A DNA stretch of 32,000 nt from Haloquadratum walsbyi C23 (GCF_000237865.1 NC_017459.1:1110001-1142000), one strand, 5' to 3'. Positions 7,499-32,000 are shown, counted from the first letter of the stretch. Program-made: numbers and translations. Notes: generated by a model not told the origin, from the sequence alone.

Positions 7499-7505
7499 TG
7501 CCGCC

Positions 7506-10331: not shown

Positions 10332-10340
10332 ACGTGTTCG

Positions 10341-16712: not shown

Positions 16713-19097
16713 TCAGGAAGTATTGGAGTTGATGTCGAAGGTGAGTATCCTCTCGTTAGCATCATACTGTATCTCGTCTGAATCAAGTTCCGTGTCATCA
16801 ACAACAACCCTGTTGGGTGGGTTAGCGGCGGCTTCCACGATGACAGTTCCAGGCGGTAAACTGTCTGATGTCGTAACTGTCATTACCTGCCACGATTCAT
16901 CTATTTCCACCTCGATTGAATCTGGGTTTTTGACTTCGGGGTGTCGGACAGTGAACTGCGTGGTCGTTTTTCCTTCGCAAGCTGGATAGACGCGATAGTC
17001 GAGTTCCGCAGGTGGTCCGTCTGCGTGCATTCTCACACGAGGATCCTCTGGAATGATACTTTCGGCGCGTACAAAAAATGGGAGTTCATCAAGATTAGGT
17101 TCGCGTCTTTGACGCTGTGGTCCAACATGATATTCCCCACTCCAATAGTCTACCCACTCGCCGGGTGGGAGGTCTACTTTCACCCGACCATCCACCGATA
17201 AAACTGGTGCGACAAGGAATTCTTCGCCAATCATATGTTGTGTTGCAGAGGCTGAAACCTGCTGGTAGTCCTCAAATTCGAGAGCCATCGGGCGCATTAT
17301 TGCCACACCGGTCGCAATAGCCTCACACCCATAGCTGAGATAATATGGAAGCAGGCGATATCGGAGTTTGGCAAATTCAATGATTATCTTTGTGGCTCTA
17401 TCACCGAACATCCACGGTTCCCTTGGTGTCTTGCCGTGAAATCGTGGGTGAGATAATGAGAGCAGCGCCCACTGAGCCCATCGAATATAGAGTGTCTCTG
17501 ATGGCTTCGGTTTATACCCTCCAATATCGCAACTCCAAAACTGGAATCCTGAGATAAGCAAGCTCAATCCGCCGCGAACGCTTTCTCTGAAACCTTTGAA
17601 TGTTGATCGAGTATCCCCACCCCAGTGTATCGGATACTGCTGTGCACCAACCCATGCCGACCGAGACCAGAGTACGGGCGGTTTATCAAACTCTTCAAAC
17701 GCGCCAGCAACTGCTCGCTGGTACGCGACTGAATAAATATTCTTACCGCCCATCCCAGTGCGTCGGTCAGCAGTCGTTGTCTGTGGCGGGAGATATTCCC
17801 CAAAGTCGGTTTTGAACACGTCGATACCACTCTCAATCAACTCGTGATGAATTTCTTGCCACCATGATATGGCCTCAGGATTTGAGAAATCGATGATTCC
17901 AGCACGTGTAGCTGAATAGCTCGGTCGCCGTAGAATATAGCTTCGCCCCTCATGATCAGTGACTAAGTAGTCATTCTGTTCCGCCGTCCTAAATAGATCT
18001 GTGCCTGTATTGATGTATGGGTACTCCCAAACGGACAGCCTGAAACCTGCCTCTGCAAGATTCGCTTTCATTTTCTCTGGAGAAGGAAATCTCTCGGCGT
18101 CGAACGCCATCTCTGGAGCTTCCATATCCATCCATCCTGGATCGACATGGAGTACATCGCAGGGCATAGAACGCTCTCGAATCTCAGATGCAATATCACG
18201 CACCTGTGTTTGGCTTTCGTATGAGTTCCGAGACATCCAGATACCGTATGTCCACTCAGGTAACTCAGGTGCACGACCTGTTAATGCGGTGTATGAGGAG
18301 ATGATATCTTTGAGTGATTCCCCTGCAAATACGACAATTGAGAGAACAGACGAATCAACATTAATCGCCGTCGCATCGGGCGTATTGCTCCCGAAGTCGA
18401 ATGTAACATCACACGCCGTCTCAACAAGAACGCCGTAGCCACGATCAGATAGAAAAAACGGAACTGGTGCATAGGTGTCGTTGGAGTTTGTGCCGTGTGC
18501 CTGCGACACAGATGCTTCTACTCTACTACCGCTCTTTTCAAAGGTAGTGAACTGTTCTCCCAGTCCGAATATCGATTCCGCAGGGTCAAGCGCGGTGGAG
18601 AAGCCCGTTTGTACCACTTCAAGCGGGTAGTTGTCGACAATGTTTTCTTTATATCCTATCGTTGGAACGGACAGTTCCCCTCGATTATTCGTGACATCAA
18701 TATTAGTGTCGAGTATCCGTTTGTTATCGTAACTCAGAGTAAACGAAGCGGTGTCGGTAGCGACTGAAGCCGAAATGCCCTCAGTATCGAGCTTGACAGT
18801 TTCATCTCCTGAGTTTATATCAACGTTTGTATCACGAGAATACTCATCATACGGCAGACCTAATGGAGAAGAGTCCACTTCAGCTACCTCTGGATTTGGT
18901 CGAAGGACCAGTCTGACGGCTTTCTCAGTGAGGAACTGCACTGAAATTGGAATAGTATGTCTGGGAGTCGGATGTTCGTTATTTAGCGGCTTAGCCGCAC
19001 AGTCAAATTCAAACGGTCGTTCAAAATTAGTCCCACGCACCTCTGTGAGCTCCAACCACATATCAAATATGGACTCAAAAGCAAAATAAATACCCAC
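16713..19097 (-). CDS. Glycoside hydrolase family 31 (alpha-xylosidase/alpha-glucosidase, YicI-like)
   Basis: 794-aa ORF. Contains GIDVFKTDFGEYLP (GH31 nucleophile region, compare KTDFGE in YicI), YPIHWGGDTRSTF (acid/base region), VLHVDPGWM and WSRSAWVGAQQ. The track start is GTG at 19097. The first ATG is at 19061 (MWLELTEV). Confidence 0.9.
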   Translation of the reverse strand: MGIYFAFESIFDMWLELTEVRGTNFERPFEFDCAAKPLNNEHPTPRHTIPISVQFLTEKAVRLVLRPNPEVAEVDSSPLGLPYDEYSRDTNVDINSGDETVKLDTEGISASVATDTASFTLSYDNKRILDTNIDVTNNRGELSVPTIGYKENIVDNYPLEVVQTGFSTALDPAESIFGLGEQFTTFEKSGSRVEASVSQAHGTNSNDTYAPVPFFLSDRGYGVLVETACDVTFDFGSNTPDATAINVDSSVLSIVVFAGESLKDIISSYTALTGRAPELPEWTYGIWMSRNSYESQTQVRDIASEIRERSMPCDVLHVDPGWMDMEAPEMAFDAERFPSPEKMKANLAEAGFRLSVWEYPYINTGTDLFRTAEQNDYLVTDHEGRSYILRRPSYSATRAGIIDFSNPEAISWWQEIHHELIESGIDVFKTDFGEYLPPQTTTADRRTGMGGKNIYSVAYQRAVAGAFEEFDKPPVLWSRSAWVGAQQYPIHWGGDTRSTFKGFRESVRGGLSLLISGFQFWSCDIGGYKPKPSETLYIRWAQWALLSLSHPRFHGKTPREPWMFGDRATKIIIEFAKLRYRLLPYYLSYGCEAIATGVAIMRPMALEFEDYQQVSASATQHMIGEEFLVAPVLSVDGRVKVDLPPGEWVDYWSGEYHVGPQRQRREPNLDELPFFVRAESIIPEDPRVRMHADGPPAELDYRVYPACEGKTTTQFTVRHPEVKNPDSIEVEIDESWQVMTVTTSDSLPPGTVIVEAAANPPNRVVVDDTELDSDEIQYDANERILTFDINSNTS

Positions 19098-21380: not shown

Positions 21381-21549
21381 ACAGATAATATCTCTCGAGA
21401 TACGTCGGCGAATACGTTATTACTCTCCTTCATTGGCTGATAATCCGAGATGCAACCCCGTATTGTAATATGCTTATCTCAGCACTCGGACGAACTGAAA
21501 CCAACCGATTTATGTCGGTATCGGGACATATAGTGTGCTACGTATAATT

Positions 21550-22224
21550 ATGGATTTTATCTCCGCGTCTTCGCCCTCCAAGTTGCCAGTCATTGGTGTT
21601 CTTGTCGACGCCAGTACGTACAAACATCTGCTCTACCTCCTGATGGCGCTTCCGCTTGGATTTGCTTACTCAGCGCTCTTTTCAATACTCGTAGTTGGGA
21701 TTGCACTTACCGTGATAGGCATCGGCGTTCTTATTCTGCTAGCGGCGCTCTTCATCACTCGAGGGATCGCCAGATTCGAGCGCTGGCTCGCCAACCAACT
21801 ATTAGACGTAGAGCTTGATACATACGATGATGTGGCTACTGATACAGACAGCACGTTTGGAGACCTCACGAAGTATCTTGAGGCAGCCTCAACGTGGCGC
21901 GGCGTCGGCTTCCTTTCAATGAAATTCTTCATTGCCGTGTTTGCGCTTATCCCATTGTTTGTGCTCGCGAACGGACTATCGCTGCTCGTTGCGCCACTAC
22001 AATATCCATATACAGCACGTCTCGGTGAAGTCAACGATGAACCGGTGAGGTGGTCGATCGAAACATTCCCTGAAGCACTCCTGGCGGGTTTGGTTGGTGT
22101 CGTTGGGATCCTCATAATGTTCCATCTGGCGAATCTTAGTGCCTACATTACCCGACACATGGCGACCGCGCTACTTGGAGTTGAGACGTCGACGGTGGAT
22201 GGGAAAACCACCTCACGGACCTGA
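21550..22224 (+). CDS. Membrane protein with a putative-sensor domain (PF13796-like)
   Basis: TYKHLLYLLMALPLGFAYSALFSILVVGIALTVIGIGVLILLAALFITRGIARFERWLANQLL is the typical N-terminal pattern of proteins annotated as sensor domain-containing. There is a second hydrophobic pair later. ATG at 21550 is preferred over GTG at 21535. Confidence 0.7.
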   Translation: MDFISASSPSKLPVIGVLVDASTYKHLLYLLMALPLGFAYSALFSILVVGIALTVIGIGVLILLAALFITRGIARFERWLANQLLDVELDTYDDVATDTDSTFGDLTKYLEAASTWRGVGFLSMKFFIAVFALIPLFVLANGLSLLVAPLQYPYTARLGEVNDEPVRWSIETFPEALLAGLVGVVGILIMFHLANLSAYITRHMATALLGVETSTVDGKTTSRT

Positions 22225-22354
22225 CAGGACACGAGCTCAACCACTACAGGACACACAACTAACAAATACTCGCATCGTGAAAAGTAAGACTCATAATCAA
22301 AGTTACTATAGAGCATTGATTCCAAAAGTTGGGAGTGGTGATATTCCAATGCTC

Positions 22355-22395
22355 GGAAATCCTCGCCCTTCAGAGTGAGGGGGATGTCAAGAGTT
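22355..22395 (+). repeat. C-rich/G-rich hairpin followed by GTCAAGAGT; IS200/IS605 right-end-like motif, copy 2 (no tnpB remnant upstream)
   Basis: ggaaatcctcgcccttcagagtgagggggatgtcaagagttg. See 21341-21380. Confidence 0.45.
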
Positions 22396-22608
22396 GCTAG
22401 ATACTATTCTGCACCTCAACAGTGTGCATGGTATATTCTTTACATTTGAAGTGATAACGCTAGTGGACTCATCAGTTGATAATCAGTTCGTTACGAGACT
22501 TACGATGTTATTATTTTAGATGGTATTATTTAAGTTTCGTTGAGACTTCGATACCTCGGAACCCAACACGGTGAATTCAACAGGATAGGATAGCATTACT
22601 CAGTAAGA

Positions 22609-23472
22609 ATGGTTTCGCAGGCAGAGATCGATCGTCTCCGTCTGGAAGCAGATACAATTATGACGCGGTACCGACAGGTCGAAACAGCACTAAAAGAAGC
22701 TCGTTCGAAGTCCGGCGACCACTGGGAGACGGGTAAGTTGGTCGTGACACTCGACACACCCCACCAGGAGACGATCGAAATTACTCTCAATCTCAATTCT
22801 GATCCGGCAAGCAACGCCCAGTCACGATATGAGAAAGCGAAAGATCTCAAAACCGAACTTGAGCGTGAACGAGACATCGTCGGTCAGTTAGCCCCACTCC
22901 CCGTCACGCCTGTTGCCTATCTTATCTGCTACCATCTCAATGCCGTCGAGGGGAATTATCCACGGTCAATGGCTGGGCATCTCGATGCCCGGCGCGAGCA
23001 GGTTGACGAATTATGTAAGAAAATGGAGACGGCAGGATTGCTTGAACGAGTTGAGTCAGGAACTGTCAAACAACGCCGTGTCAAAGCCAAGCAGGCTGAT
23101 GAGGTTCGTCAACATCATACCTATTATCGACTGTCACGAGAGGGTGACCATCTCCTCCGATTTCTTGATGAACCCAATGGACAACAGAATGTCCTCCGGC
23201 ACCTTCCCGATGGACACACGCTTATTCAACGACTGGCGCGTGGCGGACCAGATTATCCACGGATGACCGCTGACGAACTGGATATGGAGTTCGAATATGT
23301 CCGCCATCTTTACCGCGCGCTTCGACAGGTCGGTCTCATCACTGAGTATGAGGGCTCTACAATCAAGGCGACCGAGCGAAAATTAAAGCCAAAAGACGAA
23401 ACCCATCGTAAGCATACTTACTACATCGTGACTGACCGTGGCGACGAAGCGTTCCGACGTTTAGAGGGTTAA
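22609..23472 (+). CDS. DNA-binding protein with an N-terminal coiled coil and two winged-helix (PadR/MarR-like) domains
   Basis: ATG start, 287 aa. There are two wHTH-like units ending in HHTYYRLSREGDHLLRFL and KHTYYIVTDRGDEAFRRL. The N-terminal ITLNLNSDPASNAQSRYEKAKDLK resembles the NFACT/FbpA linker motif (weak, by eye). Confidence 0.7.
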   Translation: MVSQAEIDRLRLEADTIMTRYRQVETALKEARSKSGDHWETGKLVVTLDTPHQETIEITLNLNSDPASNAQSRYEKAKDLKTELERERDIVGQLAPLPVTPVAYLICYHLNAVEGNYPRSMAGHLDARREQVDELCKKMETAGLLERVESGTVKQRRVKAKQADEVRQHHTYYRLSREGDHLLRFLDEPNGQQNVLRHLPDGHTLIQRLARGGPDYPRMTADELDMEFEYVRHLYRALRQVGLITEYEGSTIKATERKLKPKDETHRKHTYYIVTDRGDEAFRRLEG

Positions 23473-23848
23473 CATATCTCATGAGGCGTCCAATAATACT
23501 GTCTCGTGGCTTCGCATCAATTTTGAGATATTATGTAGTTGGACTCGAGCCTGTCAGATTAAAAAATTAGTTTAATTTTGACGCCGGAAGTGCATTGACG
23601 GTCCGGAAACGACTGGACTTTTCTCTTTATCGAGTACTTTCTTAACTAACCACTGTAATAGTAAAAAGAGTTAATTAATAGCTGTCCCTAATCATGATAA
23701 TATTAATATTAATATAATTTATCATAAACAGTCGCTGGTGAAGTATCTGTGTTGGCAATAGCCTTGATTTCGATACGCTCGCCTTGATTATTTGTAAAAT
23801 CGTATAATATGCCGTCAGGTATTATTAATTCTAACACATTAGATAACC

Positions 23849-24262
23849 ATGGGTATTTTAGTTGCAGTCAGCGATGATAATCAGTTCCAGACAGTTCTGA
23901 ACGTAGCAGTGGGGCTGGCTGATGGATTTAATGATGAACTGTATGTGACTCATATAACAGAAACCGAGAATGCATCCGGGGACGAGCGAGACTTTCGTGA
24001 TGAGATCCGTGAATCCCTCCCAGAGACGACCGTTTCCATTGATATCGGACTCGAGCATCTCAGCCGAAGCGGGCTCCGCTCAGGAACAGCGATTGGCAAG
24101 CAACTGGTTGAACTCTCAGAGAGCGCTGACATCGATCATATTGTAATTGGTCACCGCTCAAAAGGTCGATTGACTACCGCTCGTGAGGGACATACTGGTT
24201 TTGTCGTCGCCGATGAAGCAGCAGTTCCAGTGACAATCGTCCCTGAGGCAGTTGATTCCTGA
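23849..24262 (+). CDS. Universal stress protein (UspA family)
   Basis: ILVAVSDD...ALNVAVGLA-type N-terminus and a C-terminal DHIVIGHRSKGRLTTAREGHTGFVVADEAAVPVTIV (nucleotide-binding G-x2-G-x9-G(S/T)-like region). 137 aa. Confidence 0.85.
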   Translation: MGILVAVSDDNQFQTVLNVAVGLADGFNDELYVTHITETENASGDERDFRDEIRESLPETTVSIDIGLEHLSRSGLRSGTAIGKQLVELSESADIDHIVIGHRSKGRLTTAREGHTGFVVADEAAVPVTIVPEAVDS

Positions 24263-24743
24263 TTGGCTTTCGTAGCCACTCAATGCGCTTGCTATCGATA
24301 ATAGCTACACCCGGTATAACGAGTTGATAGAATATATACTTACAATCGTGATACTGAGTATGTCGGCTGACGATCTCTCAAAGAGGCTCTTGATAAACAC
24401 GGTTGAGACTGAACTCCGACACATACAGTATTTCAGACATATTCTAACGACCATCTGGTGGGTTTCAATATCATCTTTAGTTACCATTAGCTACGATATC
24501 ATAACTGCAGTGACGATGGAAATCGAGTTTACACTCTTCGATGTGTCGCCACTGGGGCTTATTATTCAACTAGATATTCAAACATGAATGCAATCACAGA
24601 ATATATTATAGGACATACTCGGCATATGATATGTATCAGGCACATACAATCAACAGACATTATTTATACAATGTCATCAATATCGAAACCAATTAGATAG
24701 ACATGCACGCAATCACTATCTCAATATTACCCGTCATCATATT

Positions 24744-25514
24744 ATGAAGCGACGTATGCTGATTCGAACTGTTATCGGAAGTATTGCTGTCGGGAGCACG
24801 GCGGGTTGTATCCGCGCATTTCAATCTGATGATCAATCACCACCTCCACGCAAATCGAATATCATCCGTGATATCAGCGTCACAAATAGTGGTGAAATAA
24901 TCAAGGTAACAACTGCCCCAGACGAGTCACAGTGGGTGATGACTCGGCAAGAAATCGATGCTGCATCTTCACGCGCCCAGGTTGAGAATACTAACAATCA
25001 GATTAGTTGGCATCAACGTGCCATTGCGGAGGTTGATTCAGGACTGGACGCAGCATCTCCCATCGGGACAGTCGAAGCAAAAGGAAGAGGTGCAACCGGA
25101 AGAGGGCGCGGTGGATTCTCATCCGCACCGCGCACGTCGAATGGTCGTGCGTGGTACGGTGGTGGCGCATATGCAGCAACGTGGTATAATAACCACGATA
25201 ATGAAGTCTCTCGTGTCCCAGTCACGATCAATATGATTGGGATTGGATTTATTGGCGATAATGACACATTCACTGAACGGTCGATTGGACCTGGACCCAT
25301 CAACTGGGATACAACCTACAATGACCCGACCGGAGATATCCGATCTGATCTTAGTCCGCGGAGCGGATGGTACAGAGTCGGTGCGGAGGTCAATGCTGAA
25401 CTCGCCGGTGGTGGAACCCAACCTCTTGGATGGGAGTGCATTGATCTTCGTGTTCGATCCACTGGGAATGACGAAGAGATAACGAAGAAGTGGAAGGTAT
25501 CACCACGAATATAG
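24744..25514 (+). CDS. Secreted lipoprotein of unknown function (Tat-like signal plus lipobox)
   Basis: MKRRMLIRTVIGSIAVGSTAGC has twin Arg, a hydrophobic core and the lipobox TAGC. There is a Gly/Arg-rich central stretch, GRGATGRGRGGFSSAP...WYGGGAYAATWYNN. No family recognised. Confidence 0.7.
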   Translation: MKRRMLIRTVIGSIAVGSTAGCIRAFQSDDQSPPPRKSNIIRDISVTNSGEIIKVTTAPDESQWVMTRQEIDAASSRAQVENTNNQISWHQRAIAEVDSGLDAASPIGTVEAKGRGATGRGRGGFSSAPRTSNGRAWYGGGAYAATWYNNHDNEVSRVPVTINMIGIGFIGDNDTFTERSIGPGPINWDTTYNDPTGDIRSDLSPRSGWYRVGAEVNAELAGGGTQPLGWECIDLRVRSTGNDEEITKKWKVSPRI

Positions 25515-25638
25515 TCATCTCTACAATGTCAGGTTACAGTTATCTTGCCTCGCCCATCCCCGATCATAATTCCAATCTTGGCCCACGTTTGTTTCATATG
25601 ATAATTGCCTCTGTCACTCAATATAATAGTTACAATCA

Positions 25639-27468
25639 GTGAAGCGGCTCATAACCCCGTCGGCGCAAACCAGCCTACATACTATTACCTTCCTCGTTGC
25701 GTTCTGTAGTTTTACCTATGAACTTGCATACTCAGAGTTATTGACTGTGATGTATGGCGGGACGGTCACCCAGTACGGATTGACAATTGGTATTTTCTTT
25801 TCATCGCTTGGAATTGGATCTTATATCGCCAAACAGTTCGATGAAACCCGCCCTGAAAATGTCTTTCGCACTGAGCTTTATCTAGCGTTTATAGCTCCTG
25901 TTGGTCTGTTATTTATTATCTGGATCAATACGGCTGCACTGCCGCAGCTCCTTCCAGAGATACTGCTTGGATTGCTAGCTCGTCTTCCGGTCGTCGGGAT
26001 TGGCGTCTTATCAGGCTTCGAACTTCCGCTGTTACTTGCACTTGTCAATAATTTAGACTCACCCTCATTATCACCGGGAGTACGGCGAATAACGAATATG
26101 ACCGACCGAGTGATCAATACGATTATTGGAATATTATTTCATACATCTCACTCACGCAGTGAATATGACACATACTCTACAGTTCTTGCAATGGACTACC
26201 TTGGAGGGCTCATCAGCGCTCTGATTTATGTCTTCCTTCTGTACCCAAGCGTTGGACTTATTATCTCTATTTTCGCCCTCGCGCTGATTAATGTCGTTGC
26301 GGCTCTATTCTTTATTTGTCGATTTAGTTCTCGACCATGGGGAATTCTTGCCGAAGGCGACCGTGATATTATCACGAACGAACGAACAGTGTTGGTCGTA
26401 ATTACGATCGTGCTCACAGCAACACTCGGTGGAGCCGTTATCTCTCATCAAACAGTCGATAACACGCTAACAGAGTATTATCTTGAGGGGAACATAGAAC
26501 AAGAGTATCCGCCTGGGACCGTCGATGCTGAGATTACGACTCAGTTCACCACCCAATATCAACACGTCGTACAGTATAATCGCACTTGGAAGGGAAGTAG
26601 TTCGAATCCACTTTTTGCCGGGCAGACAGAGCGATGTCTCCGTCTTGATACAGCAATCCAGGTATGTGATAGTACAGCACGCCCATATCATAATGGACTG
26701 GTGGATGTCCCTCTCTCAATGTATCCAAACACTACAGATACTGATGTGCTTCTCGTTGGTGGCGGTGACTGGATTGCGCTTGATCACCTTCGTCAAGAGA
26801 ATGTTTCTGTTGATCATGTCGATATTGATGCAGAGTTCATGCAATACGCCAAAACGAATTCATTTCTCACAGAATACCACAATAACGCATATACTTACGA
26901 ACATGCAAAAACGTATCAGGCTGACATCTATGATTACCTGCAGCGGACAGATGCGCAGTATGATGTCATTTTGCTTGACCTGCCTGGTGCAAAGACTGAT
27001 GATCTGCTTCCGGTCTACTCGACACAATTCTATCGATTACTAAAGGACTCACTCACAGAAAATGGTGTTGTTGCGACATGGGGTTACTCGCAATACACAT
27101 ATTCATCTCATCAGAAAGCATACTTCAACACTGTCACTCAGGCAGGTTTCACCCAATATCAGTCATATTATGCATATGATGATTATACTGGCAATGGTGA
27201 GACTCGACGCGGAGAGTTATTTTATCTATTTGCCCCGGATTCATCACGACCGGTCATTACCCCTACGAATGGGACCCAGTATGTCAGAAAATATCAAGGA
27301 CAGTATCAGTCGAAGAAGTGGCGCTCAGTACCTACATATCGTGGCGTTAGACCGAATACGCTCTTCAATCCTAACTATGAGATTCTTATTGATACCCAGC
27401 GTAAGCAAGAATCAGCTTCAAATCGACTCAGTCGACTTCAAAACATGACACTATCAGATCTACTATAA
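25639..27468 (+). CDS. Polytopic membrane protein fused to a spermidine-synthase-like (aminopropyl/methyltransferase fold) domain
   Basis: GTG start. About 270 aa of hydrophobic helices (FLVAFCSFTYELAYSELLTVMYGG..., LGIGSYI...). Then LLVGGGDWIALDHL, VDHVDIDAEF, YDVILLDLPG and VYSTQFYRLLKDSLTENGV, which match the spermidine synthase motif order. The canonical GGGDG reads GGGDW here. Confidence 0.8.
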   Translation: MKRLITPSAQTSLHTITFLVAFCSFTYELAYSELLTVMYGGTVTQYGLTIGIFFSSLGIGSYIAKQFDETRPENVFRTELYLAFIAPVGLLFIIWINTAALPQLLPEILLGLLARLPVVGIGVLSGFELPLLLALVNNLDSPSLSPGVRRITNMTDRVINTIIGILFHTSHSRSEYDTYSTVLAMDYLGGLISALIYVFLLYPSVGLIISIFALALINVVAALFFICRFSSRPWGILAEGDRDIITNERTVLVVITIVLTATLGGAVISHQTVDNTLTEYYLEGNIEQEYPPGTVDAEITTQFTTQYQHVVQYNRTWKGSSSNPLFAGQTERCLRLDTAIQVCDSTARPYHNGLVDVPLSMYPNTTDTDVLLVGGGDWIALDHLRQENVSVDHVDIDAEFMQYAKTNSFLTEYHNNAYTYEHAKTYQADIYDYLQRTDAQYDVILLDLPGAKTDDLLPVYSTQFYRLLKDSLTENGVVATWGYSQYTYSSHQKAYFNTVTQAGFTQYQSYYAYDDYTGNGETRRGELFYLFAPDSSRPVITPTNGTQYVRKYQGQYQSKKWRSVPTYRGVRPNTLFNPNYEILIDTQRKQESASNRLSRLQNMTLSDLL

Positions 27469-27470
27469 TT

Positions 27471-27992
27471 ATGTCAGAAGAAGAACTATATCTCATCCAG
27501 TCGAAACACCCACACTCACTCGATGATATTGATATTAAAGCGACTCATGAAACATTGTTTTCTGCACACCCAGCAGAATTCCATATTATTGGAGAATCTC
27601 ACGCTGTAAGCGTTCCAGCACTTCCATTTTATGAAATTTTCTCCTGTCAGCCAATACGGACAGAGCAGGCATCAGATACGACAATCAACACGATTGAACT
27701 CTGTGTGGACACACGACTAAGTACAGTTTACACGCTCGGAGCTGAGCACACAAGTATTCAGACAACCGTCCGAATTGAGCCATTTGAGTCATTTCTAGAT
27801 GTAGGGTCGTTCACGATTGTATACAAATTCGATACAAACGCGTATACAGCAATCAACTGTATCTCACAACGGGAGTATCGAACCTATCATACATATCCTG
27901 AACACGATTTGACGGTTATTTCGTGTCATCAAATCTGTTCTGCATCGAATATAGAGTCGCGAGATATGATTGAAGCAAGCACACAACAATGA
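27471..27992 (+). CDS. Hypothetical cytoplasmic protein separated from the upstream gene by only 2 nt (possibly translationally coupled)
   Basis: The ATG is 2 nt after the upstream TAA (27466-27468). 173 aa, no signal peptide or TM segment, and no family recognised with confidence. Confidence 0.65.
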   Translation: MSEEELYLIQSKHPHSLDDIDIKATHETLFSAHPAEFHIIGESHAVSVPALPFYEIFSCQPIRTEQASDTTINTIELCVDTRLSTVYTLGAEHTSIQTTVRIEPFESFLDVGSFTIVYKFDTNAYTAINCISQREYRTYHTYPEHDLTVISCHQICSASNIESRDMIEASTQQ

Positions 27993-28029
27993 ATGACAAG
28001 CAGTTACCACTAATCCTAGCACACGACGA

Positions 28030-30201
28030 ATGAACTGCCAATATACAGCTACCCCAGAAAAAAGCCAATTCTCATCATTGACAGCCATGTGGTCGTGTCC
28101 ACACGAGTCTCATCAAGAGGGCGAACACTGTGTCTTTCATATGACTCCTGAAGAACGGAGACACCACGATATTACACCACAGGATATTCATGCTACACTT
28201 CTCTCCGAGTTAGAGGCTGAAGCAAATGATAAAAAGGAGTTTATTGGGGCGCACATCCCATATCTTGATCTTGATTATATCGATGTTGAGACAGACAATC
28301 AATATCCACTCGACTTTCGACATACAACAATCAAAAACGGAATTTCGGCTGCTCACGCACGGTTTGAGGAACGCGTTGACCTTCGGAATAGCACTGTTGG
28401 TGGCTTACATGCGCCGAACTGTGAATTTGAAGACGGATTACTTGCCTCTAAGACGGTCTTCACTGATGTGGTCACCCTCTCTGAGACGGTTTTCAATGGT
28501 GATACCGTTGACTTCACCGATACGACCTTTGAGCAGTCCCTCGTATGTGAAGAAATAACAGTTGCTGTTGATATGTTCTTCGAGCATGCAGAATTCAACG
28601 GTCGTGTTTCATTTGATGGTGCATGGTTTGCTGAACAGGCAAGCACGATTGATGACAATACTATCTTCAATCATGCAATCTTTCATGATATCGCATCATT
28701 CAAACATACGTCATTTTATTATACGGCGTTTCAGGATGTTACATTTTATGACATGACCACATTTAAACAAGCCACGGCAAACGGTACAATCCGATTGAAT
28801 GGATCAACATTTCACGCTGCTGCTGATTTCGATGAGTTACACTGTGAGGAGGACATCTCCTTTGGTGACGTCGTATTTCATGGAAAAGCCTTCTTCAGAG
28901 GGGTGTCGGTTATTGGGGGCGCAGACGTGCTTGCAGATGACTTCTCATTAGCGAATACCAGATTTAATGCGGAGACCACCTTTGAACGCGGAACATTTGG
29001 ATTCACAAACGCAGAAGATGCAAAATTCAATGCGTGCGTAAACTTCGAACGGAGTACGTTTAGCGATGATGCAGATTTTGTTAATACCACATTTGCTGAC
29101 ACAGCTGATTTCGATGAAGTGATTTTCGACGGCGATGTTGCATTCACAAATACTACCTTCGACGCGGACGCTGTCTTTCGAGGTGCTGAATTCAACGGGG
29201 GGACGAATTATATTGAATCTGATGCAGTTTTTAATAATGTTACATTCACTCAAAAGGCTGATTTTAGCGATACGGACATCGTTTCGATTGAATTTAATCG
29301 AACTGAATTCCAATCGGATGTTGATTTCACTGACGCTGAGATTACTGAGACATTCATCATTGAGAATCCGGTGTTCGTTGATGATCCATATCTTGATTTT
29401 ACTGATGCAACAATTGAGGAGGGAACAATTATGCAACCAAATCGTGGATGGGGACATTTTGACTTTACGCAAGCAACAGTCGGCGATGTTCTACTGACGG
29501 CGGCTGACCAAGTTGATAGACGAGAGCTGCTTGATTACTTTCGTTTCTGTGACACGACATTCGACACATTTGATTTCTCACAGCATCTTGAGTATCTTGA
29601 TCGAAACAATTGGGTTCTTCATACTTTTGCTCACCCAGAGACTGAATTCACACCAGCACTCGAACTCACACCAGCACGAATTGAGAAGACGTACTTAAAA
29701 GCGAAATCAAGTGCCTCAGCACAAAGCAACATCAAGGCTGCTGGTGAATTTCGGGTAAAGCGACAACAATATGCACGGAGAAAGTTCACTCAGATTGCAG
29801 CCGATTCTGCAGAACCAATTCGAACACGTATCAGAAACGGACTTCGGACAGCAGAGAATCTATTTCTTGAGTTTTCCTGCGGGTATGGACTCCGGTTGTA
29901 CCGAATTACTACCGTGTTCATACTGGTTCCACTGATAGCCGCGATTTTGTTCACTTTTGCTGGACCGCTATTCGAGACTAGTGCCGGGCAGGCTTCACTT
30001 TCCCAAGCATTGAACGCGACCGGTACTCGCACGCTTCTACTCAATGTATACTTTTCATATATCACATTTCTCACAATCGGATATGGTGGCATTGGTCCAC
30101 TCGGTCTTGGGGCTCGATTCCTTGCTGCAATTCTTGTTTATCTTAATGTAATTTTGGCTGGACTCTTCATTTACTCCCTAATTAAACGGAGTGAAATTTA
30201 G
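28030..30201 (+). CDS. Pentapeptide-repeat protein with an N-terminal Cys/His motif and a C-terminal 2-TM potassium-channel pore domain
   Basis: N-terminus WSCPHESHQEGEHCVFH. About 350 aa of A(D/N)F-type pentapeptide repeats (e.g. ADFDEVIFDGDVAFTNTTFDADAVFRGAEFNGG). The C-terminus has TM1 (ITTVFILVPLIAAILFTFAGPLF), a pore helix plus filter YFSYITFLTIGYGGIG (TIGYGG at nt 30073-30090) and TM2 (FLAAILVYLNVILAGLFIYSLI). Confidence 0.85.
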   Translation: MNCQYTATPEKSQFSSLTAMWSCPHESHQEGEHCVFHMTPEERRHHDITPQDIHATLLSELEAEANDKKEFIGAHIPYLDLDYIDVETDNQYPLDFRHTTIKNGISAAHARFEERVDLRNSTVGGLHAPNCEFEDGLLASKTVFTDVVTLSETVFNGDTVDFTDTTFEQSLVCEEITVAVDMFFEHAEFNGRVSFDGAWFAEQASTIDDNTIFNHAIFHDIASFKHTSFYYTAFQDVTFYDMTTFKQATANGTIRLNGSTFHAAADFDELHCEEDISFGDVVFHGKAFFRGVSVIGGADVLADDFSLANTRFNAETTFERGTFGFTNAEDAKFNACVNFERSTFSDDADFVNTTFADTADFDEVIFDGDVAFTNTTFDADAVFRGAEFNGGTNYIESDAVFNNVTFTQKADFSDTDIVSIEFNRTEFQSDVDFTDAEITETFIIENPVFVDDPYLDFTDATIEEGTIMQPNRGWGHFDFTQATVGDVLLTAADQVDRRELLDYFRFCDTTFDTFDFSQHLEYLDRNNWVLHTFAHPETEFTPALELTPARIEKTYLKAKSSASAQSNIKAAGEFRVKRQQYARRKFTQIAADSAEPIRTRIRNGLRTAENLFLEFSCGYGLRLYRITTVFILVPLIAAILFTFAGPLFETSAGQASLSQALNATGTRTLLLNVYFSYITFLTIGYGGIGPLGLGARFLAAILVYLNVILAGLFIYSLIKRSEI

Positions 30202-30256
30202 CACTGAGTAACTCAGCAAAAACATAATACACACTCAGTCGGTAATTTAACTTAGT

Positions 30257-31222
30257 ATGAGCAATGCCCACGAACATGACTTCACTGGAGATATCACACT
30301 CAATGGAGGTGAGGAAACGCCGATTTCAGTTATCGATGCTGAAAATGTCTATTTTCGACGAAACTCGGTCACTGGAAATGTTAAACTCATCAATCCTGAA
30401 TACGTATTTTCATCTCAGAGACCAACCGAAAAAACCGTGCCGTCAGATGACATAGAGACCACTGTTAGTGGGTCAATCGAGGATATATATGTTCCACACA
30501 ATGCAATCGAGGGGACCATCATCATTGATGGCGCACAAGATGTGCACATCGAACCAAATGCAATAACTGGTGATATTGAAATTGTTGGAGAAGAGCAACT
30601 CTTCTATAATCAACTCACAGACTCGCCATATGGACACGGCGTTTATGATGCGCATGGCGTTGGCTGGAAGCGATCAGTGTCTGTGTCCGATCCCAAACAC
30701 GGTGTCAGTGTCACTGGTGGGCGATGCACCGCAGAAATAACTGATGTAACGGCAGATATCGAACTGATTGTATCTGGTTGGAACAATACCATTGATATCA
30801 CTGGGCGAACAGCAATGGTCACGGTCTATTTACTTGGATCGCAAAACACCGTGAGGACAAGTCCATATATCGATCTTGAAACAGACATACAGGCTGGCGT
30901 CGAGAATACCATCGAACAGGAACCAGTTCCTGCCAGTGATATCATCGAGACGACCAGAAAGGAAGCATATGCTGGTCACTTACTGGGACGAGACACCGTT
31001 ACTTTTCAGGAGCCAGCCACAGACAGAGACTACTGCCCAAACTGCGGTGCGAATGCAAGCGCTATCATCACTCGCCGTCAAGAGGATGCACTTTTTCTTA
31101 CCAACACCCCTGTCTACCGATTCGATGCTGGAGGAAATTCATATGAATGTGAAAACTGCTCGGTTAACGCTACCCCAGACATACAGTTGTCTGAGGAGGA
31201 ACGTAAACGAGTCTTAGGTTGA
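30257..31222 (+). CDS. Hypothetical protein: beta-helix-like repeats plus a C-terminal CxxC...CxxC zinc ribbon
   Basis: Repeated x-(T/E)G-(D/N/T)-(I/V) strands: FTGDITLNG, SVTGNVKLI, AIEGTIIIDG, AITGDIEIVG. There is a DUF3060-like block, VTGGRCTAEITDVTADIELIVSGWNNTIDITGRTAMVTVYLLGSQNTV. Then CPNCG...(33 aa)...CENC. Confidence 0.7.
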   Translation: MSNAHEHDFTGDITLNGGEETPISVIDAENVYFRRNSVTGNVKLINPEYVFSSQRPTEKTVPSDDIETTVSGSIEDIYVPHNAIEGTIIIDGAQDVHIEPNAITGDIEIVGEEQLFYNQLTDSPYGHGVYDAHGVGWKRSVSVSDPKHGVSVTGGRCTAEITDVTADIELIVSGWNNTIDITGRTAMVTVYLLGSQNTVRTSPYIDLETDIQAGVENTIEQEPVPASDIIETTRKEAYAGHLLGRDTVTFQEPATDRDYCPNCGANASAIITRRQEDALFLTNTPVYRFDAGGNSYECENCSVNATPDIQLSEEERKRVLG

Positions 31223-31292
31223 TCGGTTGATCGGGATCTCTGCAAAAGAGTGATTACCGCTTTGATCCCAGCGCCATATGTAGAGATGGAAA

Positions 31293-31763
31293 TTATTCAA
31301 GCAGAAGAAAACTCACTCCACCAATCACTGCACTGACAGTGGTCAATATCAGCGTCAAAACGATACCCAATCCGAAGAGAGCAGGAGCGAACGTAAGCCC
31401 AAAGATAAATCCGATTAATGCACCAATTCCTGTTGCTAACACCGGTGATCCACTCTCAGTCTTTGCTCCAATACCCGACCCAGCAGCGACACCTCCAATC
31501 CACGTCAGTGGAATCGGGATTACTCCAGCGATGAGTGCTCCAATAAACATGAGGCCGGCAAGGGCAACAGCACTGGAAGAACTATTCCCTTGATTTGTTT
31601 TTGAACTGATCATATTGAATGTTCGCTTGAGTAAGCCAGACCAACTACTGCGGTCTGAAACTGGTTGTGGAGACACCCGATACCCTGACTGTGAACGTGA
31701 ACTCCCCCCAGTATCATTACTGTCTGTTGTTTTCGTTTGTTCTTTTTGTCGCTCTTTACTCAT
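31293..31763 (-). CDS. Small membrane protein with glycine-zipper-type helices
   Basis: ATG start. Polar Ser/Thr-rich N-terminus, then AVALAGLMFIGALIAGVIPIPLTWIGGVAAGSGIGA... and GIGALIGFIFGLTFAPALFGLGIVLTLILTTVSAVIGGVSFLL. Convergent with the cluster to its left. Confidence 0.6.
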   Translation of the reverse strand: MSKERQKEQTKTTDSNDTGGSSRSQSGYRVSPQPVSDRSSWSGLLKRTFNMISSKTNQGNSSSSAVALAGLMFIGALIAGVIPIPLTWIGGVAAGSGIGAKTESGSPVLATGIGALIGFIFGLTFAPALFGLGIVLTLILTTVSAVIGGVSFLLLE

Positions 31764-31915
31764 GTGAATGCATTCGTACTCCAGACAAATGAATGGCTAC
31801 ACTCAATTTCACTACTGCTACAATATCACAAGATTCAGTCATGAATGAGTCGGGATCGACAATATGGATATTAACGTGAGATCAACCGTGGAATTCTATA
31901 GCCGGAGCAGGGCAA

Positions 31916-31950
31916 GAACCCCGGATTATACCTTTGGGGTGAAGCCTATC
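31916..31950 (+). repeat. Additional copy of the GAAxCCCC...GGGGTxAAG hairpin motif family
   Basis: agaaccccggattatacctttggggtgaagcc has a 5' gaacccc arm and a 3' ggggtgaag arm. Compare aaatcccctcggggtcaag at around 645. Confidence 0.3.
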
Positions 31951-32000
31951 GAAAGGTTGCACATGATTACTGCGGTTGATGTACTGTTCAATCTTTGAGG

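What the first reader, a model, noticed from the sequence alone, without database searches (positions are those of the whole stretch)
24744..31763. Low-GC co-directional cluster of envelope and repeat proteins with no assigned pathway: best candidate for an undescribed system
Five same-strand genes have short gaps of 124, 2, 37 and 55 nt.
- A Tat lipoprotein with a Gly/Arg-rich core.
- A polytopic membrane protein fused to a spermidine-synthase-like domain.
- A 173-aa cytoplasmic protein.
- A pentapeptide-repeat protein ending in a K+-channel pore.
- A beta-helix plus zinc-ribbon protein.

A convergent glycine-zipper membrane protein closes the cluster. Composition is visibly more AT-rich than the neighbours (hand count 25/60 G+C at 28561-28620), and long AT-rich spacers precede it, which suggests separate acquisition. 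Every product is membrane-associated or a repeat scaffold, and none fits a known operon that I can name.

One speculative link is that polyamines are classical pore blockers of K+ channels, established for eukaryotic Kir channels. An aminopropyltransferase-like enzyme next to a channel could then form a locally regulated conductance. An effector role in stress or virus defence is another possibility.
Basis: partly seen in the sequence, partly recalled or inferred. Interest (0 to 1): 0.7.

Follow-up and report, generated by a model that had tools for sequence, protein, structure and literature searches.

The report
Conserved haloarchaeal aminopropyltransferase–potassium-channel operon
Five of the six flagged genes form a unit conserved across salt-loving archaea, pairing a membrane-bound polyamine-type enzyme and a hidden relative of S-adenosylmethionine decarboxylase with an unusual potassium channel, which may explain where these organisms get an enzyme thought to be missing.

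Summary
The window is Haloquadratum walsbyi. All six ORFs, the gaps and the domain calls are correct. Only five genes form the unit:
- a Tat lipoprotein (DUF8229);
- a 7-8TM aminopropyltransferase-like protein;
- DUF2617;
- a pentapeptide-repeat 2TM K+ channel;
- a beta-solenoid/zinc-ribbon protein (DUF8108).

All five lie together in 41 of 57 haloarchaeal species that carry the channel, in at least three gene orders and with unrelated flanks. They also lie together in every metagenomic contig long enough to show them, and on Haloferax volcanii pHV3, where the enzyme is HVO_B0357.

The glycine-zipper gene is specific to Haloquadratum. The low GC is simply the host's own composition.

New here: DUF2617 is a remote homolog of S-adenosylmethionine decarboxylase (hhalign probability 89-93%). 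It keeps near-invariant counterparts of the catalytic Ser, Cys, His and Glu. It always follows, and is once fused to, a distinct SpeE subfamily (GGGD[WFYH], DLPG), also in non-halophiles.

Halophiles are reported to lack AdoMetDC. The likeliest model is therefore a self-contained aminopropylation pair, coupled in haloarchaea to a K+ channel. Catalysis and channel coupling are inferred, not shown. It is a new variant of the bacterial polyamine/DUF2617 membrane operons.

The parts
24263..24743 (+). AT-rich upstream spacer (38% GC) with one TATA-like hexamer, TTTATA, at 24663-24668. It is a possible promoter of the unit.
   Evidence: This is inferred only. No transcript data exist, and the promoter tool does not cover archaeal promoters.
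24744..25514 (+). g1: Tat-exported lipoprotein of family DUF8229 (PF26682). It has a Gly/Arg-rich stretch and a conserved Trp/Pro-rich C-terminal domain ending in WKVSPRI.
   Evidence: R3, R4, G21 and C22 are invariant in 30 orthologs. TAT_signal hits occur in 7 of the 30. The precomputed Pfam family is PF26682. The local Pfam copy and the PDB give no match.
25639..27468 (+). g2: an N-terminal 7-8TM domain (about aa 14-268) fused to an aminopropyltransferase-like domain (aa 332-513). It is of the HVO_B0357 subfamily. Conserved residues are Q341, Y350-H351, G374-G-G-D377-W, D395-I-D397 and the catalytic-position D447. D447 is followed by P-G-A in place of the usual x-D-P.
   Evidence: - Pfam and NCBIfam matches.
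- Alignment to Thermus SpeE 1UIR.
- Conservation in 43 orthologs.
- Hydropathy.
- 49% identical to the pHV3 'spermidine synthase'.
- The same motifs occur in non-halophile partners.
27471..27992 (+). g3: DUF2617 protein, a remote AdoMet-decarboxylase homolog. It starts 2 nt after the g2 stop codon. Near-invariant residues are G41, S43-H44 (27597-27602), E55 and S58-C59 in the N-terminal half. In the C-terminal half they are F120, T126 and T138-x-H140-T-Y-P-E144 (27888-27902 = HTYPE).
   Evidence: - DUF2617 match.
- Residue conservation.
- hhalign against a SpeD profile: probability 89-93%, E=2e-6 to 3e-7. No shuffle reached the real score, 0/150 for each shuffle type.
- The only PDB hits are AdoMetDC proenzymes.
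- 19 of 90 members hit PF02675.
28030..30201 (+). g4: K+ channel subunit made of four parts:
- an N-terminal CPHxxH...CxFH motif (aa 23-37);
- a pentapeptide-repeat beta-helix of about 450 aa;
- a conserved linker;
- a 2TM pore (aa 626-715, nt 29905-30174) with the filter T682-I-G-Y-G686 (nt 30073-30087).
   Evidence: - Domain matches and invariant columns.
- TM segments.
- T[IV]GYG is kept in 56 of 57 homologs, and the Cys/His motif in 27 of 57.
30257..31222 (+). g5: cytoplasmic beta-solenoid protein (DUF8108/PF26413, with a DUF3060-like core). It ends in a four-Cys zinc ribbon: C260, C263, C298 and C301 (nt 31034-31159).
   Evidence: - Alignment of 29 orthologs.
- 24 of the 29 hit DUF3060.
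- AF2 model with mean pLDDT 69, and about 71-89 over residues 131-300.
- Foldseek against the PDB finds only non-significant generic beta-solenoids.
- Precomputed PF26413.

Best explanation
**What it is.** This is a five-gene operon-like module restricted (as a five-gene unit) to Halobacteria. It is built around an older two-gene pair that also occurs outside halophiles.

**The pair.**
- g2 is a membrane-anchored aminopropyltransferase-like enzyme.
- g3 (DUF2617) lies immediately downstream, translationally coupled or fused to g2. It is a divergent member of the S-adenosylmethionine decarboxylase fold.

**Proposed mechanism (inferred).**
1. g3 processes itself at the invariant x-Ser43 bond to give a pyruvoyl enzyme.
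2. g3 decarboxylates AdoMet.
3. g3 hands dcAdoMet directly to the cytoplasmic catalytic domain of g2.
4. g2 aminopropylates an acceptor at the membrane. The acceptor is not a putrescine-type diamine, because the distal-amine-binding Asp is replaced by Gly.
5. The transporter-like TM domain may move the substrate or the product across the membrane.
6. There the Tat lipoprotein g1 would bind or sense it.

**Haloarchaeal additions.**
- g4 is a tetrameric K+ channel. Its cytoplasmic gate is a pentapeptide-repeat beta-helix instead of an RCK-type ligand sensor.
- g5 is a beta-solenoid/zinc-ribbon protein.
- The simplest reading is that g4 and g5 couple K+ conductance to the state or product of the enzyme pair, for example by polycation block or gating, or by assembly into one complex.
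- The purpose would be cation or envelope homeostasis.

**Shown here.**
- The five-gene linkage.
- The g2-g3 pair in halophiles and non-halophiles, and one natural fusion.
- Homology of the C-terminal half of DUF2617 to AdoMetDC.
- Retention of dcAdoMet-type motifs in g2.
- A canonical K+ filter in g4.

**Inferred.** Self-processing, dcAdoMet production, the acceptor, export, and any coupling to the channel.
For: **Linkage**
- All five genes lie within about 7 kb in 41 of 57 species-representative haloarchaeal loci found with the channel as anchor.
  - Orders seen are g1-g2-g3-g4-g5, g1-g2-g3-g5-g4, g5(reversed)|g1-g2-g3-g4, and other inversions.
  - g1-g2-g3 are always contiguous.
- With g3 as anchor, all 57 metagenomic loci show every partner the contig is long enough to hold.
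- No other flanking family is conserved beyond genus level.
- There are no runs of five or more T inside the cluster.
- Hfx. volcanii pHV3 carries all five genes.

**The g2-g3 pair**
- The two genes are 2 nt apart or overlap.
- A 765-aa natural fusion of the two lies inside the same cluster, on a contig seen in 8 samples.
- Three non-halophile DUF2617-like genes each lie directly after a Spermine_synth gene: full-length (533-552 aa) in two contexts and cut by the contig end in the third. All carry the same GGGD[FW]/DLPG signature.

**DUF2617 is related to AdoMetDC**
- hhalign of 93 representatives against a profile of T. maritima SpeD plus 16 viral SpeD homologs gives probability 89.7%, E=1.9e-6. 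For the C-terminal half alone it gives 93.2%, E=2.9e-7.
- The real score is 42.3. Column shuffles give 12.0 +/- 2.4 and 8-column block shuffles 16.8 +/- 4.3, with 0/150 reaching the real score in each.
- The only PDB sequences hit at E<=10 are four AdoMetDC proenzymes, the best at E=0.013.
- 19 of 90 members hit Pfam AdoMet_dc (best E=1.9e-4). No other family is hit by more than 3 members.
- The near-invariant residues S43, C59, H140 and E144 match the pyruvoyl Ser, the Cys, and the His and Glu of HTxPE. The Ser-to-Cys spacing is 16 residues, against 20 in T. maritima.

**g2**
- The closest solved relative is the Thermus triamine/agmatine aminopropyltransferase 1UIR.
- The GGGD Asp that marks dcAdoMet users and the catalytic-position Asp are conserved (PMC6267482).

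**Literature fit**
- No AdoMetDC homolog was found in any sequenced halophile, so the source of dcAdoMet for these SpeE homologs is an open question (PMC5178350).
- Bacterial DUF2617/lipoprotein/polyamine operons are also reported to include a K+ channel (PMC11237479).
Against: - The alignment of the N-terminal half (the part carrying Ser43 and Cys59) to AdoMetDC is not statistically significant: E about 0.1, probability below 1%. The candidate processing site therefore rests on a motif and its spacing only.
- In the significantly aligned C-terminal half, the position equivalent to the pyruvoyl Ser is not a Ser.
- The AF2 model of g3 failed (pLDDT 35), so the fold is not confirmed.
- Bacterial DUF2617 operons are reported to encode a canonical AdoMetDC as well (PMC11237479). 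That argues DUF2617 may do something other than decarboxylate AdoMet.
- Hfx. volcanii showed no spermidine, and deleting HVO_B0357 gave no phenotype under the conditions tested (PMC5178350).
- The acceptor-binding Asp is missing from g2, so the enzyme may have a non-polyamine substrate or none at all.
- No expression, interaction or flux data exist for any of the five genes.
- About 12 species have the channel without the other four genes nearby, so the channel can work alone.
Confidence: 0.45

Rival explanations
1. It is an envelope-stress or membrane-homeostasis module, analogous to the bacterial PSP-associated polyamine operons. In this reading the SpeE-like protein and DUF2617 do not make a polyamine.
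- DUF2617 would be a neofunctionalised decarboxylase with another substrate, or a non-catalytic binder of AdoMet, dcAdoMet or a polyamine.
- g2 would modify a lipid or a protein, or act as a sensor or transporter.
- The lipoprotein would sense the cell surface.
- The channel would adjust membrane potential or turgor.
For: - Bacterial relatives combine a membrane-fused SpeE with DUF350, Band_7/SHOCT, DUF4178, lipoproteins and PspA. This is seen directly in Burkholderia and described in PMC11237479.
- Those operons are reported to carry a separate AdoMetDC.
- The putrescine-binding residue is lost in g2 (PMC5178350).
- No spermidine is found in Hfx. volcanii.
Against: - g2 keeps the GGGD Asp and the catalytic-position Asp typical of dcAdoMet-dependent transfer.
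- DUF2617 keeps all four AdoMetDC catalytic-type residues at 89-99% conservation.
- No PspA, DUF350, Band_7 or DUF4178 partner is conserved in the haloarchaeal flanks.
Confidence: 0.27
2. The unit is primarily a K+ channel with accessory subunits, and the enzyme pair exists only to make a local polycationic blocker or opener of that channel.
For: - The channel is persistently linked to the enzyme pair in 41 species and in all the long metagenomic contigs.
- A K+ channel also appears in bacterial polyamine operons.
- The filter is canonical.
Against: - The enzyme pair exists without any channel in non-halophiles.
- The channel exists without the pair in about 12 species.
- Polyamine block is established only for eukaryotic Kir channels (general knowledge). 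Nothing in the sequence tests it here.
Confidence: 0.15
3. It is an anti-virus defence or abortive-infection system. On infection, the channel would dissipate the K+ gradient.
For: - Distribution is patchy, and the cluster often lies on megaplasmids.
- An ion channel is a plausible effector.
- The window also holds an AbiEii fragment, but 18 kb away.
Against: - No PADLOC family is hit except a generic methyltransferase-fold match.
- No defence genes recur in the flanks.
- GC is the same as the host's in 43 genomes.
- The position is stable within Haloquadratum.
- In bacteria the core pair sits among NusA, trigger factor and ClpP.
Confidence: 0.06
4. It is a chance juxtaposition of unrelated genes.
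For: None beyond the lack of experimental data.
Against: The five families stay together through at least three rearranged orders, in unrelated flanks and on different replicons.
Confidence: 0.01

Closest known systems
Hfx. volcanii HVO_B0357 (membrane-bound SpeE homolog on pHV3) and its neighbours
   Same: - It is the ortholog of g2: 49% identity, the same GGGD(W/Y) motif and a 7TM N-terminus.
- pHV3 carries all five genes, in the order g1-g2-g3-g5-g4 (PMC5178350; PMC6267482).
   Different: - The literature treats HVO_B0357 as an isolated gene of unknown role.
- The four partners are annotated only as 'hypothetical' or 'pentapeptide repeat-containing'.
- In the paper library searched, none of the partner tags was discussed as a gene; HVO_B0354 turned up only as a misprint for HVO_B0357. 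The old locus tags HVO_B0354, B0355, B0356 and B0358 are my inference from gene order.
Bacterial polyamine-linked membrane operons described with the PSP system (Ravi et al., mSystems 2024, PMC11237479)
   Same: - A 7TM-fused spermine/spermidine-synthase-like protein.
- A secreted protein or lipoprotein.
- DUF2617, as a predicted enzyme with conserved His and acidic residues.
- An intracellular beta-rich protein.
- In one variant, a K+ channel.
- A Burkholderia example with TM-SpeE next to DUF350, Band_7-SHOCT and DUF4178 was seen directly.
   Different: - The haloarchaeal unit has no PspA/CesT, DUF350, Band_7, DUF4178, ATP-grasp ligase, polyamine oxidase or canonical AdoMetDC.
- The lipoprotein is DUF8229, with no detectable DUF4247 match.
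- The channel carries a pentapeptide-repeat domain rather than a ligand-sensing domain.
- g5 (DUF8108) shows no detectable relation to DUF4178 beyond a CPxCG motif.
speD-speE pairs (AdoMet decarboxylase plus spermidine synthase, e.g. the E. coli speED operon); phage SpeD-SpeE fusions
   Same: - A decarboxylase-fold gene is adjacent to, translationally coupled with, or fused to an aminopropyltransferase-fold gene.
- A viral SpeD-SpeE fusion was seen in L141, and a g2-g3 fusion in L161.
   Different: - The gene order is transferase first, then decarboxylase-like.
- The transferase is membrane-anchored and lacks the diamine-binding Asp.
- The decarboxylase-like protein is below the threshold of every AdoMetDC model, and its candidate Ser lies in a different half of the protein from the HTxPE motif. 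From my own knowledge of that structure, eukaryotic AdoMetDC is arranged the same way.
2TM K+ channels of the KcsA/MthK type
   Same: Two TM helices flank a pore helix and a T[IV]GYG filter, and a tetramer is expected.
   Different: The cytoplasmic domain is N-terminal: a pentapeptide-repeat beta-helix of about 600 aa, often with a Cys/His motif, instead of a C-terminal RCK or other ligand-binding domain. I found no described channel with this architecture in the searched literature.

Membership tests
Aminopropyltransferase (SpeE, PF01564) | Significant match to the family model over the catalytic domain | tested here: met
   PF01564 at E=8.4e-15, 55.2 bits against a cut-off of 22.9. The best PDB relative is the Thermus SpeE 1UIR, at E=1.6e-13.
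Aminopropyltransferase (SpeE, PF01564) | Residues that bind dcAdoMet: the GGG(D/E) loop acid, the acidic residue after beta-2 (VDID), and the N-terminal Q and YH motifs | tested here: met
   Q341, Y350-H351, G374GGD377 and D395-I-D397 align to 1UIR and are conserved in 43 orthologs. The same motifs are present in non-halophile partners.
Aminopropyltransferase (SpeE, PF01564) | A catalytic Asp, plus a second Asp (D-x-x-D-P) that binds the distal amine of putrescine-type acceptors | tested here: not met
   The first Asp (D447) is conserved. The second is replaced by Gly in a family-wide 'DLPGA' motif. The same point is made for HVO_B0357 in PMC5178350. g2 is therefore a member of the fold and superfamily, but should not be filed as a spermidine synthase.
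Aminopropyltransferase (SpeE, PF01564) | Transfer of an aminopropyl group from dcAdoMet | not testable with these tools
   Needs an enzyme assay.
Bacterial membrane-fused polyamine aminopropyltransferase (NCBIfam PRK03612) | Whole-protein score above the curated cut-off | tested here: not met
   194 bits against a cut-off of 472. The match does cover both the TM and the catalytic parts, at E=3.3e-57. g2 is a homolog, not an equivalog.
DUF2617 (PF10936) | Score above the gathering threshold | tested here: met
   23.6 bits against 22.3 for the window protein. 31 of 31 and 86 of 90 relatives match, the best at about 3e-10 to 5e-10.
S-adenosylmethionine decarboxylase, prokaryotic class (PF02675) | Significant sequence or profile similarity to the family | tested here: inconclusive
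   - Below Pfam thresholds for single sequences: 19 of 90 members hit, the best at E=1.9e-4.
- Profile against the PDB: the only hits are AdoMetDC, the best at E=0.013.
- Profile-profile comparison: probability 89-93%, E=2e-6 to 3e-7, over 31-46 columns of the C-terminal half. Shuffle controls reached the real score 0/150 times.
- This supports homology of that segment. It does not establish family membership.
S-adenosylmethionine decarboxylase, prokaryotic class (PF02675) | A self-processing Ser that gives the pyruvoyl group, within an (E/S)-S-H context | tested here: inconclusive
   x-S43-H44 is conserved in 90 and 89 of 93 representatives, and position 42 is mostly Ser. However, it lies in the N-terminal half, whose alignment to SpeD is not significant (E about 0.1). 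Cleavage itself cannot be tested here.
S-adenosylmethionine decarboxylase, prokaryotic class (PF02675) | The HTxPE His/Glu and a downstream catalytic Cys | tested here: met
   H140 is present in 92 of 93, E144 in 89 of 93 and C59 in 83 of 93. HTYPE aligns to the HTWPE of 2III and 1TLU.
K+ channel (Ion_trans_2, PF07885) | Two TM helices around a pore loop with a T-[IV]-G-Y-G filter | tested here: met
   - T682, G684, Y685 and G686 are invariant in the 10-sequence alignment A1.
- The filter is present in 56 of 57 homologs.
- The TM segments lie at 626-644 and 697-715.
- The window protein scores 20.0 bits against a cut-off of 22.5. Most homologs carry the precomputed PF07885 hit.
Pentapeptide-repeat proteins (PF13576) | Tandem pentapeptide repeats above the threshold | tested here: met
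   E=2.8e-33, with 7 matched stretches.
Tat-dependent lipoprotein | A twin-arginine motif, a hydrophobic region and a lipobox Cys | tested here: met
   R3, R4, G21 and C22 are invariant in 30 orthologs. TAT_signal hits occur in 7 of them. Export and lipidation were not tested.
Known anti-phage defence systems (PADLOC) | A match of any component to a defence family | tested here: not met
   The only hit is mad2 (E=1e-6) on the Rossmann part of g2. Nothing was found for the other five proteins.
PSP (PspA) envelope-stress operons | PspA/IM30, or its CesT, Band_7, DUF350 or DUF4178 partners, in the neighbourhood | tested here: not met
   No such family appears in the precomputed neighbour lists. 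No flanking family is conserved beyond genus level. g5 does not match DUF4178.

The most novel reading that the evidence does not exclude
DUF2617 is a self-processing, pyruvoyl-dependent AdoMet decarboxylase in miniature. It would have the pseudo-dimeric layout of the eukaryotic enzyme: Ser and Cys in the first half, His and Glu in the second. That would make it the 'missing' AdoMetDC of haloarchaea, and a second, unrecognised AdoMetDC lineage in bacteria, including the DUF2617 proteins of actinobacteria. Together with a dedicated membrane-bound aminopropyltransferase subfamily, it would make an unconventional aminopropylated product at the membrane. In Halobacteria that product would directly control a new class of K+ channel gated by a pentapeptide-repeat domain.
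Probability: 0.3. Interest if true: 0.85.

Novelty: new variant of a known kind. Interest (0 to 1): 0.7.

Why it matters
- **An open question becomes testable.** Haloarchaea carry membrane-bound SpeE homologs, yet no AdoMet decarboxylase homolog was found and no spermidine detected. What these enzymes do, and where dcAdoMet would come from, has been open since at least 2016 (PMC5178350). A cryptic AdoMetDC-fold protein that always follows, and is sometimes fused to, one SpeE subfamily gives a concrete hypothesis.
- **The genetics are tractable.** The whole cluster sits on pHV3 of the genetically tractable Hfx. volcanii.
- **A domain of unknown function gets a fold and a function proposal.** DUF2617 is also present in bacteria, including the M. 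tuberculosis example cited in PMC11237479.
- **A new enzyme subfamily is defined.** The signature GGGD[WFYH]...DLPG marks a distinct aminopropyltransferase subfamily.
- **A new channel architecture is identified.** The K+ channel has a large pentapeptide-repeat cytoplasmic domain and is genetically tied to a polyamine-type enzyme. This would be a prokaryotic setting for testing polyamine-channel coupling.

Tried and rejected
- **AF2 of g3.** Only 6 close homologs were allowed as the alignment, and the model failed (pLDDT 35). The fold could not be checked by Foldseek.
- **AF2 of g5.** The model was moderate (pLDDT 69). Foldseek against the PDB gave nothing at E<=1e-3, only generic beta-solenoids.
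- **g1 (lipoprotein).** The local Pfam copy gives only Tat-signal hits. There is no DUF4247 match and no PDB match.
- **g5 against DUF4178.** hhalign against the Burkholderia DUF4178 protein matched only a CPxCG zinc-ribbon motif.
- **Internal duplication in g3.** The N-terminal half against the C-terminal half is not significant. The N-terminal half against SpeD is not significant either.
- **Defence.** PADLOC found nothing specific.
- **Mobile-element or low-GC island idea.**
  - No bounding repeats.
  - No tRNA in the window.
  - GC equals that of the host in 43 genomes.
- **RNA elements.** Rfam found nothing in 22000-32000.
- **A sixth conserved gene or regulator.** Clustering the flanking ORFs from 43 loci found none beyond genus level.
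- **Canonical SpeD.** tblastn with T. maritima SpeD found none in the window or in 1.7 Mb of fetched loci. It picked out only the g3 genes, weakly.
- **Literature gaps.**
  - The Li et al. 2019 Biochem J paper on AdoMetDC gene linkages was not held.
  - The H. walsbyi transcriptome paper does not mention these genes in its main text.
- **Whole-genome absence of PF02675 in H. walsbyi.** I could not check this directly. It rests on PMC5178350.

Full report
**Source and observation**

The 723-aa protein is 99% identical to HQ_1921A of Haloquadratum walsbyi DSM 16790. A metagenomic contig carries the same gene set at 98-100% identity.

The domain calls hold:
- g1 is a Tat lipoprotein. Its RR pair and G-C lipobox are invariant, and it has a Gly/Arg-rich stretch.
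- g2 has about 7-8 hydrophobic segments and a Spermine_synth domain. It also matches the bacterial membrane-fused PRK03612 model over both parts, below that model's cut-off.
- g3 is a soluble DUF2617 protein.
- g4 has seven Pentapeptide_3 stretches and a 2TM pore with a TIGYG filter.
- g5 is beta-rich and has four invariant Cys.

**Composition**

The 25/60 hand count is correct, but the inference drawn from it is not.
- The cluster is 45.0% GC. The 13 kb upstream is 47.6% and the H. walsbyi genome is 47.9% (PMC5496347).
- The atypical stretch is 2501-11500, at 59% GC. It holds an AbiEii fragment and paired TrmB/DUF7437 regulators.
- In 43 other genomes the cluster's GC follows its flanks, from 46% to 72%, with a mean difference of +0.008 +/- 0.029.
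- No repeats bound the cluster, and the window has no tRNA.

**Synteny**

A scan of one genome per species, using an alignment of channel homologs, returned 57 haloarchaeal loci.
- tblastn with the window proteins found all five genes within about 7 kb in 41 of the 57.
- The orders seen are:
  - g1-g2-g3-g4-g5 (Haloquadratum, Natronomonas, Halohasta, Halovenus);
  - g1-g2-g3-g5-g4 (Haloferax, Halogranum, Natrinema hispanicum and many others);
  - g5 reversed, then g1-g2-g3-g4 (Halosimplex, Natrinema altunense, Halopiger);
  - other inversions.
- g1-g2-g3 are always contiguous and co-directional.
- Flanks differ between genera, and clustering the flanking ORFs found no further conserved family.
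- The glycine-zipper gene and the upstream Usp gene are shared only within Haloquadratum.

An independent metagenome scan anchored on g3 gave 57 loci. Every partner the contig could hold was present.

About 12 species have the channel alone. Many copies of the cluster lie on megaplasmids.

**Link to the model organism and the literature**

The g2 homolog on Hfx. volcanii pHV3 is the annotated 'spermidine synthase'. All five genes are there.

- Prunetti et al. (PMC5178350) describe HVO_B0357 and HVO_0255 as SpeE homologs with seven TM helices and non-conserved putrescine-binding residues.
  - They found no AdoMetDC homolog in any sequenced halophile and no spermidine in the cells.
  - They note that deleting HVO_B0357 gave no phenotype.
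  - They leave the role of these enzymes, and the source of dcAdoMet, open.
- Gomez et al. (PMC6267482) distinguish the HVO_B0357 type (GGGD[W/Y]) from the HVO_0255 type. The window protein has GGGDW.
- A search for the other gene tags, DUF8229, HQ_1921A or Nmlp_2848 found no discussion of any of the partner genes.

**g2 residues**

Aligned to Thermus SpeE 1UIR, g2 keeps Q341, Y350-H351, GGGD377, D395-I-D397 and the catalytic-position D447. The following 'TDP' is replaced by a family-wide 'PGA'. The enzyme therefore looks competent to bind dcAdoMet, but it is not built for a putrescine-type acceptor.

**g3: the main new result**

The first evidence was weak.
- A profile of 31 haloarchaeal g3 orthologs hit the Aquifex AdoMetDC proenzyme 2III weakly (E=0.59). 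The aligned region surrounds the self-processing site and the HTWPE motif.
- In per-member Pfam scans, the only other biologically meaningful families hit were the two AdoMetDC families.
- T. maritima SpeD, whose sequence was checked against 1TLU, was searched by tblastn against 1.7 Mb of loci. It found no canonical SpeD; more than 20 of its about 30 weak hits were g3 genes.

Better profiles strengthened it.
- I built a SpeD profile from 1TLU and 16 real viral SpeD homologs.
- I widened the DUF2617-like set to 93 representatives drawn from 1.84 billion proteins.
- hhalign then gives probability 89.7%, E=1.9e-6. For the C-terminal half alone it gives 93.2%, E=2.9e-7.
- The real score of 42.3 exceeds all 150 column shuffles (12.0 +/- 2.4) and all 150 block shuffles (16.8 +/- 4.3).
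- With the 90-sequence profile, the only PDB hits at E<=10 are four AdoMetDC proenzymes.
- 19 of 90 members hit PF02675, while no other family is hit by more than three.

Residue conservation across the 93 representatives:

| Residue | Present in |
|---|---|
| G41 | 90 |
| S43 | 90 |
| H44 | 89 |
| E55 | 91 |
| C59 | 83 |
| H140 | 92 |
| E144 | 89 |

In AdoMetDC the pyruvoyl Ser, a Cys about 14-20 residues later, and the His and Glu of HTxPE make up the active site. That is established knowledge of the family; the positions in 1TLU are visible.

In DUF2617 the Ser and Cys lie in the first half and the HTYPE in the second. From my own knowledge, eukaryotic AdoMetDC is arranged the same way.

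Caveat: the alignment of the first half to SpeD is not significant (E about 0.1), although it is repeatedly the top-scoring placement.

**The pair is older than the cluster**

- A 765-aa natural fusion of g2 and g3 lies between DUF8229 and DUF8108, next to a pentapeptide channel. Its contig was seen in eight samples.
- Lys-rich, non-halophile DUF2617-like genes were looked up in three contexts.
  - One context has bacterial neighbours: NusA, trigger factor, ClpP and RNase Y.
  - Each gene directly follows or overlaps a Spermine_synth gene: 533-552 aa in two contexts and cut by the contig end in the third. All carry the same GGGD[FW] and DLPG motifs.
  - None has a channel, DUF8229 or AdoMetDC nearby.

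**The other parts**

- The T[IV]GYG filter is kept in 56 of 57 g4 homologs, and a CPHxxH...CxFH motif in 27.
- g5 matches DUF3060 in 24 of 29 members and is PF26413/DUF8108 in the precomputed data. Foldseek finds only non-significant beta-solenoids.
- g1 has no detectable relative outside its own family.
- No run of five or more T lies inside the cluster, and there is one TATA-like hexamer upstream of g1.
- Rfam finds nothing.

**Comparison with known systems**

Ravi et al. (PMC11237479) describe bacterial operons with:
- a 7TM-fused spermine-synthase-like protein;
- lipoproteins;
- DUF350;
- DUF4178;
- PspA/CesT or Band_7-SHOCT;
- in one variant, a DUF4247 lipoprotein with DUF2617, a K+ channel, AdoMetDC and a polyamine oxidase.

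I saw one such locus directly in Burkholderia: TM-SpeE beside DUF350, Band_7-SHOCT and DUF4178.

The haloarchaeal unit shares the enzyme, DUF2617, a lipoprotein, a beta-rich cytoplasmic protein and a K+ channel. Its lipoprotein, channel type and beta-rich protein belong to different families, and it lacks PspA, DUF350, Band_7 and a canonical AdoMetDC. PADLOC gives no support for a defence role.

**Verdict**

The cluster is real, has five genes rather than six, is not a low-GC island, and is not without relatives.

The best-supported mechanism is a self-contained aminopropylation pair, an AdoMetDC-like DUF2617 with a membrane aminopropyltransferase. In Halobacteria this pair has recruited a surface lipoprotein, a pentapeptide-repeat K+ channel and a beta-solenoid/zinc-ribbon protein.

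My confidence in each step:

| Claim | Confidence |
|---|---|
| The five-gene linkage is real | about 0.95 |
| DUF2617 is homologous to AdoMetDC | about 0.8 |
| DUF2617 produces dcAdoMet | about 0.35-0.45 |
| The pair is coupled to the channel | about 0.2 |

Noticed in passing
window 2501-11500: A GC-rich stretch (59%, against 47.9% for the genome) that looks like foreign or plasmid-derived DNA. It carries:
- an AbiEii toxin fragment (6113-6682, minus strand);
- two TrmB-type HTH/DUF7437 genes (5200-5736 and 9431-10030, minus strand);
- a DUF7342 gene (6872-7498, plus strand).

This stretch, not the cluster, is the compositional outlier of the window.
   Followed up: partly
window 31293-31763 (minus strand): The convergent 156-aa glycine-zipper membrane protein has two TM segments. 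It is conserved only in Haloquadratum genomes (72-98% identity) and is absent next to the cluster elsewhere. Its function is unknown.
   Followed up: partly
window 21535-24262: Upstream neighbours are a Sensor-domain membrane protein (21535-22224), a DUF2250 protein (22609-23472) and a universal stress protein (23849-24262). Usp stays next to the cluster in two other H. walsbyi-type genomes (L005, L008), and a Usp homolog also lies beside the Haloarcula montana copy (L026); it is absent from the other loci.
   Followed up: partly
L141 (IMGVR_UViG_3300030012_002034), 501-1333: A viral contig encodes a SpeD-SpeE fusion: an AdoMetDC domain followed by a spermidine-synthase domain with GGGDGG. It is an independent example of the decarboxylase and the transferase joined in one chain.
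   Followed up: no
L015, L016, L017, L019, L021, L024, L025, L028, L048, L050, L057, L059: Stand-alone homologs of the pentapeptide K+ channel, with none of the other four genes within 10 kb. Two are much longer (1056 and 1068 aa in L019 and L057), though those lengths come from my automatic ORF extension. One (L059) lacks the GYG filter. Whether these genomes hold the enzyme pair elsewhere was not checked.
   Followed up: no
window 28096-28140 (g4 aa 23-37) and homologs: A CPHxxH-x(5-7)-CxFH motif sits at the channel's N-terminus in 27 of 57 homologs. It is a likely small metal-binding module, and it is optional within the family.
   Followed up: partly
L163-L165 (metagenomic contigs carrying P0208): In a Lys-rich, non-halophile lineage the SpeE-DUF2617 pair lies among a PemK toxin, ORF6N-domain genes and giant ORFs of 1522 aa and more than 2600 aa. 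This may be a phage or other mobile context. It contrasts with the housekeeping context of L162.
   Followed up: no
L159 (Burkholderia arboris NZ_CP101525.1), 4484-9110: A bacterial membrane-fused SpeE (526 aa) lies divergent from DUF350, Band_7-SHOCT and a double-DUF4178 protein with an N-terminal zinc ribbon. This matches the operon type described in PMC11237479. The record is labelled a plasmid but is 3.5 Mb long and unannotated.
   Followed up: partly
window 12045-12803 and 16713-19097: An FkbM-type methyltransferase (12045-12803, plus strand) and a large GH31-family glycosidase (16713-19097, minus strand; precomputed Pfam in L001) lie in the moderately AT-rich middle of the window. They are unrelated to the cluster.
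   Followed up: no
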